DNA from: an uncultured archaeon
GTDB lineage: Archaea > Asgardarchaeota > Lokiarchaeia > Sigyniarchaeales > SOKP01
Reading direction: 5' to 3'
Assembly (NCBI GenBank): GCA_964486045.1
Contig: CAZALK010000009.1
Location: 96,001 to 160,000 of the forward strand
DNA length: 64,000 nt
This document shows positions 24,524-53,833 of this stretch, piece after piece (within the stretch, counting starts at the first letter, position 1; each line of letters opens with the position of its first letter). The notes under the pieces are model-generated. The model was not told the DNA's origin, did no database searches, and was given only the letters and a program-made list of their open reading frames with translations. The translations under genes and the position numbers were made by a program.

Positions 24524-25891
24524 TTGATAAAATTAAAGAGGTTTAAAAAAATTCAGCAAGAGATTGTATTATTCCCGGGATGTGTAATTACTTATCGGCT
24601 CCCTTTTATTGAAGTTTCAATAAGAAAGGCTTTCGATTATTTAGGGATCGCATTCACAGAAAATTCAAAGTTTTCCTGTTGTCCTGAACCTAATGGAATC
24701 AAAAACTCGAATAAGTTATTATTTTCCATAGCTGCTGCACGGAATCTTGCTCTTGCTGAGAAGGAGAATAAATCTATTTTAACACCCTGTAATGGGTGTT
24801 TTACAACTTTCAAAAAAATAAAAGGTGAAATTGAGGAGGATCACCACTTCAGGAGGAAAGTTAATGATTATTTAGATAAAATTGATCTTAAAGTTCAGGG
24901 AGATTTAGAAGTTTATCATATGGTCGAATTCTTTTCTAAATTCAGAAGAGAAGCAATTAAGGATAATTTAAATTATACCTTGACTGGTTTAAGAGTTGCT
25001 GTGTTTTATGGTTGTCACTTCCTCAGACCAAGTAATATGGTGCAGATAGATGACCCGCTAGAGCCAACCATATTTGATAATTTAATTGAGGATTTAGGTG
25101 CTCAAAGTATTGATTATGATCTCAAGATGGAGTGTTGTGGGGGAAGCCTTGGGAGAGCAGGGAATCCAGCCCTATCATTAGAGATAATAAATGCGAAATT
25201 AGCCAGCATGAAGGAGAATAAAGTTGATTGCATAGTCGTGTGCTGTCCTCAATGTTTTATTCAGTTTGATCATTTACAACATGACTTAAAAAAAGATGAT
25301 CATAATTACGATATTCCCGTTTTATATTATTCAGAAATTGTTTGTATCGCATTAGGGATTGACATTCGAGAAATTATGAAAAAAAACCACAGAACACAAG
25401 TTGAATCCCTTTTTAACAAATTAGAAATCATCCAAGAGAAAAATAGTGAGATAAGAAAACATTTCGATCTTAATTTCTTACTCAAGTGTTATTCATGTAA
25501 AGCATGTGATGATGACTGTATTATTTCAACTAAGACTGAATTCAAACCGAGTGAAATTGTTGGTAGACTTCTTGAGGGAAAAGTTGAGGATGTAATATCA
25601 GATCCTTCAATTTGGTTGTGCCTTGATTGCTATTTATGTTATGAGCTGTGTCCTATGAGGGTTGGGGTGATTGAAATTTTTTCAATATTACGAAACCTTG
25701 CGACAGAACGAGGTCATACTACCAAGGGATATAAGGGTGAATTTGAATCCTTTTATCAAAAAGGAACTGTGGGTATGTTTTCAAAGTCAGCCCGTAAAAG
25801 AGTGGGCTTAGAATCTACAAAACCAAACGTTGGAGATTTGAAAGAATTATTTAATATTATTGAAAGAGAAAATGTAAAACCAGATTCTTAA
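24524..25891 (+). CDS. HdrB-HdrC-like fusion (two CCG domains + 2x[4Fe-4S])
   Basis: FPGC, SCCP, TPCNGC, FYGCH, ECCGG, CCPQC; CYSCKACDDDC, CLDCYLCYELCP. Confidence 0.9.
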   Translation: MIKLKRFKKIQQEIVLFPGCVITYRLPFIEVSIRKAFDYLGIAFTENSKFSCCPEPNGIKNSNKLLFSIAAARNLALAEKENKSILTPCNGCFTTFKKIKGEIEEDHHFRRKVNDYLDKIDLKVQGDLEVYHMVEFFSKFRREAIKDNLNYTLTGLRVAVFYGCHFLRPSNMVQIDDPLEPTIFDNLIEDLGAQSIDYDLKMECCGGSLGRAGNPALSLEIINAKLASMKENKVDCIVVCCPQCFIQFDHLQHDLKKDDHNYDIPVLYYSEIVCIALGIDIREIMKKNHRTQVESLFNKLEIIQEKNSEIRKHFDLNFLLKCYSCKACDDDCIISTKTEFKPSEIVGRLLEGKVEDVISDPSIWLCLDCYLCYELCPMRVGVIEIFSILRNLATERGHTTKGYKGEFESFYQKGTVGMFSKSARKRVGLESTKPNVGDLKELFNIIERENVKPDS

Positions 25892-50818: not shown

Positions 50819-51475
50819 ATGGTAAGACACCGTTTACCTAGATTTCCATTTGATTATATTAATGACAAGGCTGATGAATATAATAATTCAAGATGGATGG
50901 AGCGTAATCAAAAGAGAGCTACTATGTTAAGCATCCAATATCTTTTTGATGAAAAATTAGATAATAGTGAAGTGGATGGGATACAAATGGAAGATTCATC
51001 ACTAATTTTAGAGTTAGGGTGTGGGACGGGTTTTTCTTCCGAGGTCTTAATTGAAAATGGTTTTATTGTAATAGGCGTAGATATTTTACCTGATATGTTA
51101 TTAAAAGCAAGAGAAAAGAAGAAAGATATGAAATTTGAAAAATCATTATTATTAATTTTAGCTGATATTAATTATCTACCGATTAGAGCAAATGTTATTG
51201 ATCATATCATTTCGATCTCCTCCTATAACTTTATTATCCATGGAAATAAGAATTTTGGTGAAAAAATTAAGCTTCTCAATAATACAGCAAAATATTTAGG
51301 CAAAATTTTGAAGAAGGAGGGGAGAACAATCATTGAATTTTATCCTATAGATGATCAAGAATTAACTATTTTTAATAATTCATTTACTAAAAATGGGTTT
51401 GAAGGATTCATGGTGAAAAGCAACCCAAAACAAAAATCTGGTCAAACCTTTTTGCTATTAAAGAAAAGAGTATAA
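50819..51475 (+). CDS. SAM methyltransferase, Bud23/WBSCR22-like
   Basis: LELGCGTG plus ISIS, EFYP.DDQ, GFEG..V..NP segments recalled from Bud23. Confidence 0.7.
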   Translation: MVRHRLPRFPFDYINDKADEYNNSRWMERNQKRATMLSIQYLFDEKLDNSEVDGIQMEDSSLILELGCGTGFSSEVLIENGFIVIGVDILPDMLLKAREKKKDMKFEKSLLLILADINYLPIRANVIDHIISISSYNFIIHGNKNFGEKIKLLNNTAKYLGKILKKEGRTIIEFYPIDDQELTIFNNSFTKNGFEGFMVKSNPKQKSGQTFLLLKKRV

Positions 51476-51477
51476 AA

Positions 51478-52620
51478 ATGGGAACCTGTAAGTTTTGTGG
51501 GGAAAAAGATAGTGCAATATCTGAGATCCTTCAAGTGTGCAGAAAATGTGTTTTGGAAGGAGATTGGACCAAAGTAAAGCCACATATTTATACAGTTCAT
51601 GAGCAAGTGAGAAAACTTGTAGAATTACCTAAAGAACCACCAAAAGCACAAAAACCGTATATAAAGTTAAAATGCAATTATTGTATAAATGAATGTTCCC
51701 TCTCTCAAAATGATGTAAGTTATTGTGGATTAAGGAATATCCACAGAGAGAAAACTGGTGATTTACCTTTTCCATCTAAATCTAAAGGATATATTCATGG
51801 TTATATTGATCCAAATCCAACAAACTGTTGTAATGCCTGGTTTTGCCCAGCAGGGTCATCAGTTGGATTTCCGGAATATTCAGATTATGAAGACCCTGAG
51901 TTTGGGACATATAGTTATGCTGCATTTTTGTATGGTTGTACCTTTAATTGTTTATTCTGCCAGAATTCCTCTCATAAACATTTTTCAAAAAGAAATCTAT
52001 TTAACGCTGAAATGCTCGCAAATCAGATTGTTAATAATAAGGATATCACATGCATCTGCTACTTTGGTGGTACCCCAGAAGCTCAGCTGCCTTTTTCAAT
52101 TAATTTATCTAACAAAATACTAGAAAAAATTAAACAAGAAAAGAAAAAACGTAAATTTCGAGTATGCTTCGAATGGAATGGTTCAGGAAACAGAAATTTA
52201 ATTGAAAAATGCATGCAAATTGCTATTAATTCAGGAGGAAATATTAAATTTGATTTAAAGACATTCCATGAAAAATTAAATCTTGCTTTATGTGGAGTAA
52301 GTAATAAACGAACCCTTGATAATTTTAAATTTCTAGCTGAAAACTATTTTGGAACGAGAGGTCAAGATATGCCAGAGATGAGTGCTTGCACCCTATTAGT
52401 CCCGGGATATACTACCTATGAAGAAGTTGAGTTAATTGCGAAATTCATCAGTTCTATTAATAAAAATATTCCTTATAGCTTATTAATATTCCACGGAGAT
52501 TATCAAATGAGAGATTTAAGAGTTACAGCTCGAGAGCAGGCTTTAAAATGTTTGGAAGTTGCAAAAAAATATCTAAAAAGAGTAAATTTAGGAAATAAAT
52601 TCTTATTGGGAATAGCTTAA
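51478..52620 (+). CDS. radical SAM protein (PFL-activase/AmmeMemoRadiSam-like)
   Basis: GCTFNCLFCQN, YFGGTPE, KFDLK, LLVPG; N-terminal Zn motifs. Confidence 0.88.
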   Translation: MGTCKFCGEKDSAISEILQVCRKCVLEGDWTKVKPHIYTVHEQVRKLVELPKEPPKAQKPYIKLKCNYCINECSLSQNDVSYCGLRNIHREKTGDLPFPSKSKGYIHGYIDPNPTNCCNAWFCPAGSSVGFPEYSDYEDPEFGTYSYAAFLYGCTFNCLFCQNSSHKHFSKRNLFNAEMLANQIVNNKDITCICYFGGTPEAQLPFSINLSNKILEKIKQEKKKRKFRVCFEWNGSGNRNLIEKCMQIAINSGGNIKFDLKTFHEKLNLALCGVSNKRTLDNFKFLAENYFGTRGQDMPEMSACTLLVPGYTTYEEVELIAKFISSINKNIPYSLLIFHGDYQMRDLRVTAREQALKCLEVAKKYLKRVNLGNKFLLGIA

Positions 52621-52733
52621 TATAATACATATACCCTTTAAAAACTCAGATTTCAAGAACTAAAATAATAAAATTTAATTTGAACTACTCTTTTTAGATA
52701 ATAATATGATTAAAAGATTTGGTGAGTAAAAAA

Positions 52734-53070
52734 ATACAAAAAGCTAGAATAAGGCTTTCTTCTACTCAATTAGACGCACTTAAGTCGGTATGCGGACAAA
52801 TTGAGTCTGTGTGCAAAACACTTTCAAACCTCTTGTTAGTGGTGCGACTCACAGGGTATTAGAAAGAACGGACCTATTCCTCTTCCCACAAAAAGATTAC
52901 GTGTGCCAATATTAAAAGCGCCCTCTGGACAAGGAACTGCTACCTGGGCAAAATTTGAGATGCGTATTCATAAACGTCTTTTTGAAATAATTGCTAATGA
53001 AAGAAGCATGCATCTCATTATGAAGATTCAAATTCCCGAGTCAGTGCTTGTAGAAATTGAACTAATGTAA
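52734..53070 (+). CDS. rps10: ribosomal protein uS10, split gene: join(52734..52817,52849..53070)
   Basis: Exon 1 (I/M)QKARIRLSSTQLDALKSVCGQIESVCK; exon 2 SQGIRKNGPIPLPTKRLRVPILKAPSGQGTATWAKFEMRIHKRL...IQIPESVLVEIELM. Spliced product 101 aa. Start ATA 52734 (GTG 52722 alternative). Confidence 0.93.
52818..52848 (+). other. predicted 31-nt bulge-helix-bulge intron in rps10 mRNA
   Basis: outer helix CUGUG/CACAG, central helix UGCA/UGCG, 3-nt bulges AAA (52816-18) and ACU (52847-49); removal restores frame and length. Confidence 0.85.
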
Positions 53071-53074
53071 ATGT

Positions 53075-53833
53075 TTATAAATCATCTATTTTAATCTGAA
53101 CCGGATCTTTCGGTAATTTTGCTTTCTCATTAATTTCGATATTATCGACATAGTAAATAGTGCCAAGAACTTCCGTATTTTTACCAATTGTTACATCTCT
53201 GCCTTTAATATCACCTTCAACATGCGCCCTCCCAATGTTTACAATGTTTTTAGCGAAAACACTCCCGTGGATTATATAATGTTGCTTTTTTCTTATAGTT
53301 TCTGAAGCTCCAATTAGGATATCTTCAGCAACGACATTTCCTTCTATATGTGTTTTCCCTTCTATTCTAATCTTTTTTTCAGAAGATAAGTTTCCGTTAA
53401 CATTTGAAGAACCAGAAAAGGTTACACCTTGTTCTCCTCTCACAAAATGTCCTGCTTTGAAAGAACCAGATGCAATTAAAGAACCTTGGATATTAACAAG
53501 ATTACCTATTTGCGTTGAACCAGAAAAATCCGCATTTTCATCTCCATAAAGAAATCCAGCAATATTAAAAGAACCCGAGCTACTTACATCTCCATGCGCG
53601 TTTATATTACCTGATCCTTTTAAAGATCCTGATGAAGTAAGCCCATTACATTCCAAATCCCCATTAATTCGACCTGAACCTGAAACTCGTATGGATTTAT
53701 TTATTTTTCCACCCGAGATTTTTGCTGAGCCAGATACGCTTATATGTTCTTCATATTCTTTTAGGCTCCCTGAGCTACTGATTATTGCTCTTTTCTCATT
53801 TTGCTTTACAGATTCACCCTCTTTTTTTTCCAT
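53075..53833 (-). CDS. bactofilin-like (polymer-forming) beta-helix protein
   Basis: repeated (V/F)SGS.xIxG units; IEGNVVAEDI, VEGDIKGRDV. Confidence 0.75.
   Translation of the reverse strand: MEKKEGESVKQNEKRAIISSSGSLKEYEEHISVSGSAKISGGKINKSIRVSGSGRINGDLECNGLTSSGSLKGSGNINAHGDVSSSGSFNIAGFLYGDENADFSGSTQIGNLVNIQGSLIASGSFKAGHFVRGEQGVTFSGSSNVNGNLSSEKKIRIEGKTHIEGNVVAEDILIGASETIRKKQHYIIHGSVFAKNIVNIGRAHVEGDIKGRDVTIGKNTEVLGTIYYVDNIEINEKAKLPKDPVQIKIDDL

What the first reader, a model, noticed from the sequence alone, without database searches (positions are those of the whole stretch)
52806..52855. Bulge-helix-bulge intron in the mRNA of ribosomal protein uS10
Seen: uS10 homology sits in two frames. 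The 5' frame stops at TAG 52860 and the 3' frame has a TAG at 52837. The junction folds as outer helix CUGUG(52807-11)/CACAG(52850-54), central helix UGCA(52812-15)/UGCG(52843-46), 3-nt bulges AAA(52816-18) and ACU(52847-49), closed by C52819-G52842 or by CACU/AGUG. Established: the archaeal tRNA splicing endonuclease EndA cuts after the second nucleotide of each BHB bulge; the best-known mRNA case is crenarchaeal cbf5. Applying that rule excises 52818-52848, exactly 31 nt. The product reads ...VCGQIESVCK|SQGIRKNGPIPLPTK..., 101 aa, with the spacing I recall for archaeal uS10. The structure independently predicts the frame-restoring length. Inference: EndA/RtcB-type splicing of an essential ribosomal-protein mRNA in an Asgard archaeon, invisible to gene callers. 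I am not aware of it being described.
Basis: partly seen in the sequence, partly recalled or inferred. Interest (0 to 1): 0.96.

Follow-up and report, generated by a model that had tools for sequence, protein, structure and literature searches.

The report
tRNA-type intron splitting Asgard uS10 gene
The only gene for the essential ribosomal protein uS10 in this Asgard (Promethearchaeota/Loki-type) archaeon is interrupted by a 31-base insert shaped like a tRNA intron. It is one of at least 18 such mini-introns in the genome's protein genes, so these mRNAs are probably cut and rejoined, something published for only one archaeal coding sequence (cbf5).

Summary
uS10 (PF00338) lies in two frames, and removing 52818-52848 (31 nt) restores the protein found in 41 uninterrupted congeners. 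The junction folds as a canonical helix-bulge-helix-bulge-helix motif, and cutting after the second bulge nucleotide gives exactly that excision.

- **Gene status:** this is the only rps10 in a 99%-complete genome.
- **DNA support:** the insert is present at 83x and 261x depth in two runs of the probable source study. It is also present in two independent cold-seep studies.
- **Sister lineage:** a diverged relative (JGI contig, L036) keeps the same 31-nt insert. Exon dN/dS is 0.08 and the intron hairpin is invariant, so the split gene is alive.
- **Enzymes:** the genome encodes two EndA subunits and RtcB.
- **Genome context:** a motif-free comparison with a congener found about 18 further 30-32-nt inserts, in EF-2, RpoA', cdhA, small GTPases and others. 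Nearly all have BHB geometry at borders defined by homology alone.
- **Missing evidence:** no RNA data exist, so splicing is inferred. The splice register is uncertain by 1 nt.

The scan has flagged this same stretch before, and similar mRNA introns on other DNA (radA, EF-1alpha, ychF, fbp, carB, EF-2). I found no publication describing Asgard mRNA BHB introns.

Verdict: a new member of a known kind, of high interest.

The parts
52734..52817 (+). rps10 (uS10) exon 1. The open frame begins at TTG 52719 / GTG 52722. The likely start is ATA 52734, about 10 nt after GGTGA 52720-24.
   Evidence: Translation. Weak PF00338 match to profile positions 1-27. 97% identical to congeners' N-termini. Congeners have an in-frame stop just before K/N-IQKAR.
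52806..52811 (+). 5' strand of the outer (exon-exon) helix UCUGUG, pairing with 52850-52855
   Evidence: MFE fold. Identical in L036. Only 4 of these 6 pairs can form in the nearest intron-less relatives.
52812..52815 (+). 5' strand (exon) of the 4-bp central helix UGCA
52816..52818 (+). 5' three-nucleotide bulge AAA. Predicted EndA cut between 52817 and 52818.
   Evidence: Geometry. Cut rule from PMC2738675. The cut coincides with the alignment gap.
52818..52848 (+). 31-nt BHB intron. The alternative register is 52817-52847.
   Evidence: Absent from 41 congeners and from 80 archaeal rps10 loci. Present in X1-X4 contigs and in L036. Unique in the genome.
52819..52842 (+). Intron hairpin (h'): CACU/AGUG plus CAA/UUG around a 5-nt loop
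   Evidence: Pair probabilities above 0.83 in every context. 0 of 24 differences from L036 against a synonymous divergence of 0.30 (P 1.7e-4).
52843..52846 (+). 3' strand (intron) of the central helix UGCG
   Evidence: In L036 it reads AGCA, so U.G becomes U-A and A-U becomes A.A.
52847..52849 (+). 3' three-nucleotide bulge ACU. Predicted cut between 52848 and 52849.
   Evidence: The first bulge nucleotide is A, as in all the other mini-introns of the genome.
52850..52855 (+). 3' strand of the outer helix CACAGG (exon 2)
52849..53070 (+). rps10 exon 2, including the TAA stop at 53068-70
   Evidence: PF00338 positions 27-98, E 9.5e-19. 95-97% identical to congeners.
52788..52814 (+). Competing exon-1 hairpin (52788-97 / 52805-14) that sequesters the 5' half of the BHB in long-context folds of this allele
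   Evidence: It is weaker in L036, where the BHB remains the MFE fold in the whole transcript.

Best explanation
The 31 nt at 52818-52848 are an archaeal bulge-helix-bulge intron inside the coding sequence of the single rps10 gene. In the pre-mRNA, exon bases 52806-15 pair with 52843-55 to present two 3-nt bulges either side of a 4-bp helix. The heteromeric (alpha-beta)2 splicing endonuclease EndA cuts after the second nucleotide of each bulge, and RtcB joins the exons (...GUGUGCAAA|UCACAGGGU...). The resulting mRNA encodes a normal uS10 of about 101 aa. Shown here: the geometry, exact frame restoration, gene essentiality and single copy, purifying selection on the split gene, the presence of the enzymes, and a genome-wide family of like inserts. 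Inferred: the cleavage and ligation themselves.
For: (1) The MFE fold is a canonical hBHBh'. Its cut sites equal the 31-nt gap in the alignment with 19 congeners. The spliced product reads ...SVCK|SQGIRKNG..., identical to the nearest relatives. The chance of such a motif at a given site is about 1e-4.
(2) There is only one PF00338 match in a 99%-complete genome.
(3) The insert is real DNA. Independent Logan contigs at depth 83 and 261 carry it, as do contigs from two other studies (X3 record 7, X4 record 15). Intron-less relatives in those runs join exactly at 52849 or are 31 nt shorter.
(4) L036 is the closest rps10 relative (90.4% against 82.5% or less) and its flanking genes are about 82% identical. 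It keeps a 31-nt intron at the same site. Exons show dN/dS 0.08 at dS 0.39, the P of that few nonsynonymous changes under neutrality is 1.3e-8, and the intron hairpin has 0 of 24 changes. The L036 BHB is the MFE fold even in the 436-nt transcript.
(5) The genome has two roughly 200-aa EndA-family ORFs and a full-length RtcB. Asgard EndA is published as the broad-specificity (alpha-beta)2 type (PMC5829648).
(6) In a motif-free census against congener G006, 18-19 inserts of 30-32 nt break conserved genes. At homology-defined borders, 12 have a 4/4 central helix and 6 have 3/4, against backgrounds of 2.8% and 17.9%.
Against: No RNA evidence exists for this organism. The local fold is not more stable than shuffled sequences (z -0.85). 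In contexts of 141 nt or more, the window's allele is predicted to prefer a competing exon-1 hairpin, with BHB pair probabilities of 0.1 or less. The one diverged homologue breaks one central pair (A-U to A.A), so covariation support is thin, at one compensating and one disrupting change. Register 52817-52847 also gives a 4/4 central helix (GUGC/GUGC) and a plausible product (N). The genome also contains about 15 plain in-frame stops in conserved genes, so some gene decay or consensus error does occur in it.
Confidence: 0.85

Rival explanations
1. The insert stays in the mRNA and the ribosome gets past it, either by programmed bypassing (T4 gene 60 / mitochondrial byp type) or by a +1 frameshift within 52840-52859.
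For: The insert is short and hairpin-forming, as byp elements are. In L036 the codon before the resume site happens to be AAA, matching the take-off codon AAA.
Against: In the window the would-be landing codon is GAC, not AAA. No stop follows the take-off codon. A frameshift would leave 8-10 foreign residues in a spacing that is invariant across archaeal uS10. Frameshifting cannot rescue the sister inserts of the genome, which are in frame and carry 1-3 stops. None of them has matching take-off and landing codons, whereas all have BHB geometry.
Confidence: 0.04
2. The gene is a recently inactivated pseudogene or a tolerated lesion. uS10 would then be supplied by an unassembled copy, or the bin is chimeric.
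For: The genome is a MAG with 7.8% estimated contamination. It shows about 15 simple nonsense codons in otherwise conserved genes.
Against: There is a single PF00338 hit at 99% completeness. dN/dS is 0.08 between two intron-bearing lineages separated by dS 0.39. The same allele occurs in three studies plus a JGI contig. EF-2, RpoA' and cdhA would all have to be dead as well.
Confidence: 0.04
3. The 31 nt are removed from the RNA by a mechanism other than EndA/RtcB, such as another endonuclease or ligase, or an unknown editing or self-cleaving activity.
For: In three of the four context lengths folded for the window's allele (141, 261 and 436 nt), the BHB is not the predicted structure. Several sister inserts have weak or no outer helix and only 3/4 central pairs.
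Against: The borders coincide with the BHB cut rule far above background. There is no Rfam ribozyme or intron match. At 31 nt the insert is too small for group I or group II introns. Relaxed BHB motifs are known substrates of (alpha-beta)2 EndA (PMC5829648, PMC2738675).
Confidence: 0.05
4. The insert is an assembly or sequencing artefact.
For: It occurs in only one species-level genome of the 54 genomes searched in the genus.
Against: Independent contigs from four runs in three studies contain it without gaps. A diverged JGI contig has it with three substitutions.
Confidence: 0.01

Closest known systems
cbf5 pre-mRNA intron of Crenarchaeota (Desulfurococcales, Sulfolobales; Watanabe 2002; Yokobori 2009, PMC2738675)
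   Same: It is a short BHB(-like) intron inside a protein-coding sequence, cut between the 2nd and 3rd bulge residues by a heteromeric EndA. It shows lineage-specific gain and loss, and gene callers do not see it.
   Different: The host gene differs (uS10, not Cbf5), as does the phylum (Asgard/Promethearchaeota). Here the motif is strict hBHBh' rather than mostly relaxed. This intron is one of at least 18 uniform 30-32-nt introns in many genes of one genome rather than a single case. Splicing is not yet shown at the RNA level.
BHB intron in the 5' UTR of Haloferax volcanii HVO_1309 mRNA (PMC7714728)
   Same: It is an mRNA substrate of the tRNA splicing endonuclease, confirmed there in vivo and in vitro.
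   Different: That intron lies in a UTR, so the reading frame does not depend on it. Here the coding frame of an essential gene depends on exact excision.
Archaeal tRNA and rRNA BHB introns, including the intron-rich tRNA genes of Asgard archaea (PMC11291895; bioRxiv 10.64898/2026.10.13.758758)
   Same: The motif and the enzymes are the same. This genome also looks tRNA-intron-rich: ARAGORN finds only 31 tRNAs, 20 with intron calls.
   Different: The host RNA here is an mRNA. The size class is very narrow, at 30-32 nt.
Translational bypass elements (T4 gene 60; Magnusiomyces mitochondrial byps)
   Same: These are short hairpin-forming inserts with stops inside essential coding sequences, present at many sites per genome.
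   Different: Bypass elements need matching take-off and landing codons and are not removed from the RNA. Those features are absent here, and BHB geometry is present instead.

Membership tests
Archaeal BHB (EndA/RtcB-spliced) intron | Two 3-nt bulges on opposite strands separated by a 4-bp helix | tested here: met
   AAA 52816-18 and ACU 52847-49 flank UGCA/UGCG. This is the MFE of the local fold.
Archaeal BHB (EndA/RtcB-spliced) intron | Flanking helices h and h' (strict hBHBh') | tested here: met
   The outer helix is 6 bp (52806-11/52850-55). The inner helix is CACU/AGUG with a 1-nt bulge, or C52819-G52842.
Archaeal BHB (EndA/RtcB-spliced) intron | Cutting after the 2nd nucleotide of each bulge yields the functional RNA | tested here: met
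   Excision of 52818-52848 reproduces the uninterrupted uS10 of congeners residue for residue at the junction. The cut rule comes from PMC2738675.
Archaeal BHB (EndA/RtcB-spliced) intron | The host encodes the splicing endonuclease EndA | tested here: met
   Two PF01974 matches lie in intact ORFs of 201 and 200 aa (G000:C7:36262-36867 and C10:136871-137473). This is consistent with the (alpha-beta)2 type.
Archaeal BHB (EndA/RtcB-spliced) intron | The host encodes the RNA ligase RtcB | tested here: met
   PF01139 matches full length (positions 1-426), E 3.6e-167, at G000:C1:512216-513523.
Archaeal BHB (EndA/RtcB-spliced) intron | The motif is kept in homologous introns (conservation or covariation) | tested here: inconclusive
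   There is one diverged homologue (L036). Length, outer helix, hairpin and 3-nt 3' bulge are kept. U.G becomes U-A, but A-U becomes A.A. The BHB is the MFE in all contexts there. Too few sequences exist for covariation statistics.
Archaeal BHB (EndA/RtcB-spliced) intron | Spliced junction, or excised or circular intron, observed in RNA | not testable with these tools
   No RNA run is listed for this DNA.
cbf5 intron lineage of Crenarchaeota | Located in the cbf5 gene at the homologous site | tested here: not met
   The host gene is rps10. The resemblance is one of mechanism, not shared descent.
Programmed translational bypass element | Matching take-off and landing codons, with a stop directly after take-off | tested here: not met
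   The take-off codon AAA is followed by ACA. The codon before the resume site is GAC. The sister inserts also lack matching codons.
Group I / group II self-splicing intron | Ribozyme core | tested here: not met
   The insert is only 31 nt, and no Rfam match at E of 1 or less was found in 52500-53200.

The most novel reading that the evidence does not exclude
The rps10 intron is one visible member of an expanding population of 30-32-nt BHB mini-introns that are unrelated in sequence. They colonise coding sequences, often inside the most conserved motifs, in this Promethearchaeial (Loki-type Asgard) genus. Over the same ortholog set there are at least 18 in this genome and about 5, at other sites, in a congener. 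That would mean routine, obligatory mRNA splicing of core genes (uS10, EF-2, RpoA', cdhA, small GTPases). It would also mean an active intron-gain process in the archaeal lineage closest to eukaryotes.
Probability: 0.6. Interest if true: 0.93.

Novelty: new member of a known kind. Interest (0 to 1): 0.82.

Why it matters
Published archaeal mRNA splicing by the tRNA endonuclease rests on one coding-sequence case (cbf5, Crenarchaeota) and one UTR case (Haloferax). Here an essential ribosomal protein gene, and with it EF-2, RNA polymerase A' and more than a dozen other genes of an Asgard archaeon, can only be expressed if a mini-intron is removed precisely.

- **Annotation:** standard gene callers mis-annotate these genes as broken or split. 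That affects completeness estimates, marker-gene phylogenies and metabolic reconstructions of Asgard MAGs.
- **Evolution:** intron gain and loss in protein-coding genes becomes directly testable in the closest archaeal relatives of eukaryotes.
- **Experiment:** the work offers defined substrates and cognate enzymes for in vitro tests.

Tried and rejected
- **RNA evidence:** no RNA holder was listed for this stretch, so expression and splicing could not be examined.
- **Genome-wide BHB plus ORF-joining scanners:** background from gene boundaries and off-frame ORFs swamped any signal, and no peak appeared at 30-32 nt. I abandoned them for the homology census.
- **Degenerate exon-flank pattern with a 10-40-nt gap:** there were no hits in JGI metagenome contigs or in GTDB genome contigs. 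Own-genome records may be left out of those collections.
- **Intron-core search in metagenome contigs:** this gave the single useful hit, L036.
- **Exon-2 protein search in five congeners that lack an rps10 match:** nothing was found, and these are incomplete bins, so the result is uninformative.
- **Rfam on 52500-53200:** nothing. **ARAGORN on the window:** nothing.
- **All-against-all comparison of the mini-introns:** similarity was no greater than in shuffled controls, so they are not copies of one mobile element.
- **Rest of congener G006:** The census covers 84% of it.
- **Event C1:550433 (about 33 nt) and the second insert of the histone-like gene at C11:~93300:** neither could be resolved to clean borders.
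- **Structure prediction and complex prediction:** not used. They would not bear on the claim.

Full report
**Observation**

The window sequence at 52500-53200 and its ORFs show uS10 homology in two frames. The 5' frame reads ...KIQKARIRLSSTQLDALKSVCGQIESVCK and continues as TLSNLLLVVRLTGY to TAG 52860. The 3' frame, closed upstream by TAG 52837, reads SQGIRKNGPIPLPTK...EIELM to TAA 53068. Pfam places the 3' piece on Ribosomal_S10 positions 27-98 (E 9.5e-19) and the 5' piece weakly on positions 1-27.

- a 6-bp outer helix (52806-11/52850-55)
- a 3-nt bulge ACU (52847-49)
- a 4-bp central helix UGCA/UGCG
- a 3-nt bulge AAA (52816-18)
- an intron hairpin

The published rule is that EndA cleaves between the second and third residues of each bulge (PMC2738675). 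Applying it excises 52818-52848, which is 31 nt.

**Is the excision the right one?**

A search of the own genome (5.18 Mb, 99% complete) finds a single PF00338 match, this one. In the genus, 41 of the 53 other species genomes have an uninterrupted rps10 covering the whole profile. None is split, and 12 bins lack the gene.

tblastn with the spliced product shows the junction ...SVCK|SQGIRKNG... is identical to the nearest relatives. A MAFFT alignment of the DNA puts one gap of exactly 31 columns at 52818-52848. All 80 archaeal rps10 loci fetched from GTDB genomes are continuous at this site. The nearest are named Promethearchaeota or Promethearchaeia archaeon, which confirms the Asgard/Loki-type affiliation.

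In this genome, a 4/4 central helix with an outer helix of at least 6 bp occurs at a given position with L=31 at a frequency of 1.1e-4. The frequency is 7.7e-6 if an inner helix of 4 bp is also required. The coincidence with the homology-defined borders is therefore not chance.

**Is the insert real DNA, and is the gene alive?**

Logan contigs of two runs of the probable source study carry the whole stretch without any difference, at depths 83 and 261. Two cold-seep metagenomes from other studies hold contigs that span the insert without gaps: X3 record 7 (52768-52918, 5 differences) and X4 record 15 (52629-52858, 6 differences). Intron-less relatives in the same runs join exactly at 52849 or are 31 nt shorter.

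A search of JGI metagenome contigs with the intron core found one contig, Ga0114920_10014133 (L036). It is syntenic over 3 kb. Its flanking genes are only about 82-83% identical, yet it has a 31-nt insert at the same site with three substitutions (52843 T>A, 52846 G>A, 52848 C>A). It is the closest rps10 relative of the window (90.4% CDS identity against 82.5% or less for all intron-less species). This indicates one gain in their common ancestor.

Between the two intron-bearing alleles, dS is 0.39 and dN is 0.032, so dN/dS is 0.08. The probability of so few nonsynonymous changes under neutrality is 1.3e-8. The intron hairpin 52819-52842 has 0 of 24 differences, with P 1.7e-4 at the synonymous rate. 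The split gene has therefore been under purifying selection, and the intron itself is constrained. The 31 nt must be dealt with after transcription.

**Structure in the sister allele, and caveats**

In L036 the central helix changes U.G to U-A but A-U to A.A. The 3' bulge stays at 3 nt (AAU), and the outer helix and hairpin are unchanged. The BHB is the MFE structure of L036 in every context up to the 436-nt transcript, with pair probabilities of 0.6-0.9.

In the window's allele the BHB is the MFE only in the 72-nt context. In contexts of 141-436 nt, an exon-1 hairpin (52788-97/52805-14) captures the 5' strand and BHB pair probabilities fall to 0.1 or less. The local fold is also no more stable than shuffled sequences (z -0.85). 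Thermodynamic folds of long AU-rich mRNAs are weak evidence either way, but this is a real caveat and possibly a regulatory feature.

A second register, 52817-52847, gives a 4/4 central helix (GUGC/GUGC) without an outer helix, and the product VCN-SQG. One congener has N at that position. The canonical register, which gives K and has the 6-bp outer helix, is preferred. Only RNA can settle this.

Compared with the nearest intron-less relatives, the intron-bearing alleles have synonymous changes (AGT to TCT Ser, CAA to CAG Gln) that extend the outer helix from 4 to 6 bp. This is suggestive, but it is a single case.

**Machinery**

The genome encodes two EndA-family proteins in intact ORFs of 201 and 200 aa, and one full-length RtcB. 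Asgard archaea are reported to have the (alpha-beta)2 EndA with the L1 loop that confers broad substrate specificity (PMC5829648). ARAGORN finds only 31 tRNA genes, 20 with intron calls and several mis-typed. This fits the heavily interrupted tRNA genes described for Asgard archaea (PMC11291895).

**Genome-wide context**

Notes from other first readers of this scan listed candidate BHB introns in other genes of the same genome. I tested this independently of the motif.

*Method.* I fetched 2.8 Mb (84%) of a single-contig congener, G006, translated its 2799 non-overlapping ORFs, and ran tblastn against the own genome. 1858 ORFs were well matched.

*Result.* 18-19 short inserts carrying stops or frameshifts interrupt otherwise conserved G000 genes and are absent from G006. 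By length:

| Length | Number of inserts |
|---|---|
| 30 nt | 13 |
| 31 nt | 2 |
| 32 nt | 2 |
| ~36 nt | 1 (doubtful) |
| unresolved | 1 |

*Host genes.*
- EF-2, inside the P-loop (C13:92018-92047)
- RpoA' (C13:44101-44130)
- cdhA, twice (C22:24549-24580 and 24748-24777)
- three small GTPases (C1:29542, C1:354340, C17:96895)
- an fwdA-like gene (C20:4147)
- an AIR-synthase-like gene (C1:759271)
- a Zn-finger protein (C21:17232)
- a MoxR-like ATPase (C3:187694)
- others

*BHB geometry at homology-defined borders.* Borders were defined only by the best protein match to G006. At those borders, 12 events have a 4/4 central helix with 3-nt bulges in the canonical register and 6 have 3/4. The background within 40 nt either side is 2.8% and 17.9%. 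In every case the first nucleotide of the 3' bulge is A, as in rps10.

*Other properties.* The inserts share no sequence similarity beyond shuffled controls, and their GC content is that of the genome. The reverse comparison finds about 5 such 30-nt inserts in G006 that G000 lacks.

*Conclusion.* The rps10 intron belongs to a size-uniform, structure-defined class that is gained and lost within the genus and is more abundant in this genome. An organism cannot have EF-2, RpoA' and uS10 all dead, which supports removal at the RNA level.

**Rivals**

- **Ribosomal bypass or frameshifting.** Both fail on the missing take-off and landing match (AAA against GAC in the window). A frameshift would also insert foreign residues into an invariant spacing. 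The in-frame, multi-stop sister inserts cannot be rescued by frameshifting.
- **Pseudogene.** This is contradicted by the single copy, dN/dS of 0.08 and persistence across lineages and sites. I do note about 15 plain nonsense codons in other conserved genes of this MAG.
- **Artefact.** This is excluded by independent contigs.
- **A non-EndA removal mechanism.** This cannot be excluded without biochemistry. It is disfavoured by the fit of the borders to the BHB rule and by the absence of any Rfam match.

**Novelty**

Full-text searches found no report of BHB introns in Asgard mRNAs. A 2020 study states that cbf5 is the only coding-sequence example besides its own 5'-UTR case (PMC7714728).

Within this scan, the same stretch was read by other first readers. 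Follow-up agents have reported similar introns on other DNA: radA in a Lokiarchaeon, EF-1alpha in Njordarchaeales, ychF, fbp, cbf5, carB and EF-2. I used those notes as leads only.

I class the finding as a new member of a known kind, namely an EndA-type intron in an mRNA. Its interest is high because of the host gene, the lineage and the genome-wide family it belongs to. The main gap is direct RNA evidence.

Noticed in passing
G000:C13:92018-92047(+), C13:44101-44130(+), C22:24549-24580(-), C22:24748-24777(-), C1:29542-29571(+), C1:354340-354369(+), C17:96895-96924(-), C20:4147-4176(-), C1:759271-759300(+), C21:17232-17261(+), C3:187694-187725(+), C23:7064-7094(-), C5:195271-195300(+), C7:186723-186752(-), C11:93206-93235(-): Fifteen further inserts of 30-32 nt, each with a stop or a frameshift, lie in conserved genes: EF-2 P-loop, RpoA', cdhA twice, three small GTPases, an fwdA-like gene, an AIR-synthase-like gene, a Zn-finger protein, a MoxR-like ATPase and others. 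All are absent from congener G006. All have BHB geometry at homology-defined borders, and the first nucleotide of the 3' bulge is always A.
   Followed up: partly
G006:C1 about 337487(+), 691070(+), 1410049(-), 1505071(+), 2599625(+) (loci L037-L176): The congener has about five 30-nt stop-containing inserts of its own in genes that are continuous in G000. One sits inside the DGNRRW motif of a UPP-synthase-like gene and one in an NAD-synthetase-like gene. The phenomenon is therefore genus-wide, with lineage-specific sites.
   Followed up: partly
window 52706-52736: rps10 seems to lack a canonical start. In congeners an in-frame stop directly precedes K/N-IQKAR, so the start is probably ATA (52734), about 10 nt after GGTGA (52720-24). 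A 7-codon uORF (ATG 52706 to TAA 52729) overlaps this region. The upstream 80 nt are 95% identical to L036, against about 83% for neighbouring DNA.
   Followed up: partly
window 52788-52814: In long-context folds of this allele, the exon-1 hairpin (52788-97/52805-14) competes with the BHB. It is weaker in L036, where the BHB dominates. It could be incidental or could modulate splicing.
   Followed up: partly
G000, e.g. C20:10052(-) TGA vs R, C14:34656(+) TGA vs G, C1:565839(+) TGA vs G, C20:72070(+) TAA vs Q, C2:12161(-) TAA vs E, C24:47822(+) TGA vs C: About 15 single in-frame stop codons (a mix of TAA, TGA and TAG) align to ordinary residues of well-conserved G006 orthologues. These may be pseudogenes, decayed paralogues, MAG consensus errors or, for TGA opposite Cys, selenocysteine. 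There is no sign of a uniform recoding.
   Followed up: partly
G000 whole genome: ARAGORN finds only 31 tRNA genes in a 99%-complete genome. Twenty have intron calls, and several are mis-typed as Pyl or Stop tRNAs. This suggests many multi-intron or non-canonically interrupted tRNA genes.
   Followed up: no
window 50819-52620: rps10 is not next to tuf. It follows a 218-aa SAM-methyltransferase-like ORF (50819-51475) and a 380-aa Cys-rich, radical-SAM-like ORF (51478-52620). Other readers of the scan noted the same Bud23-like / radical SAM / rps10 neighbourhood in relatives. I did not verify this with Pfam.
   Followed up: no
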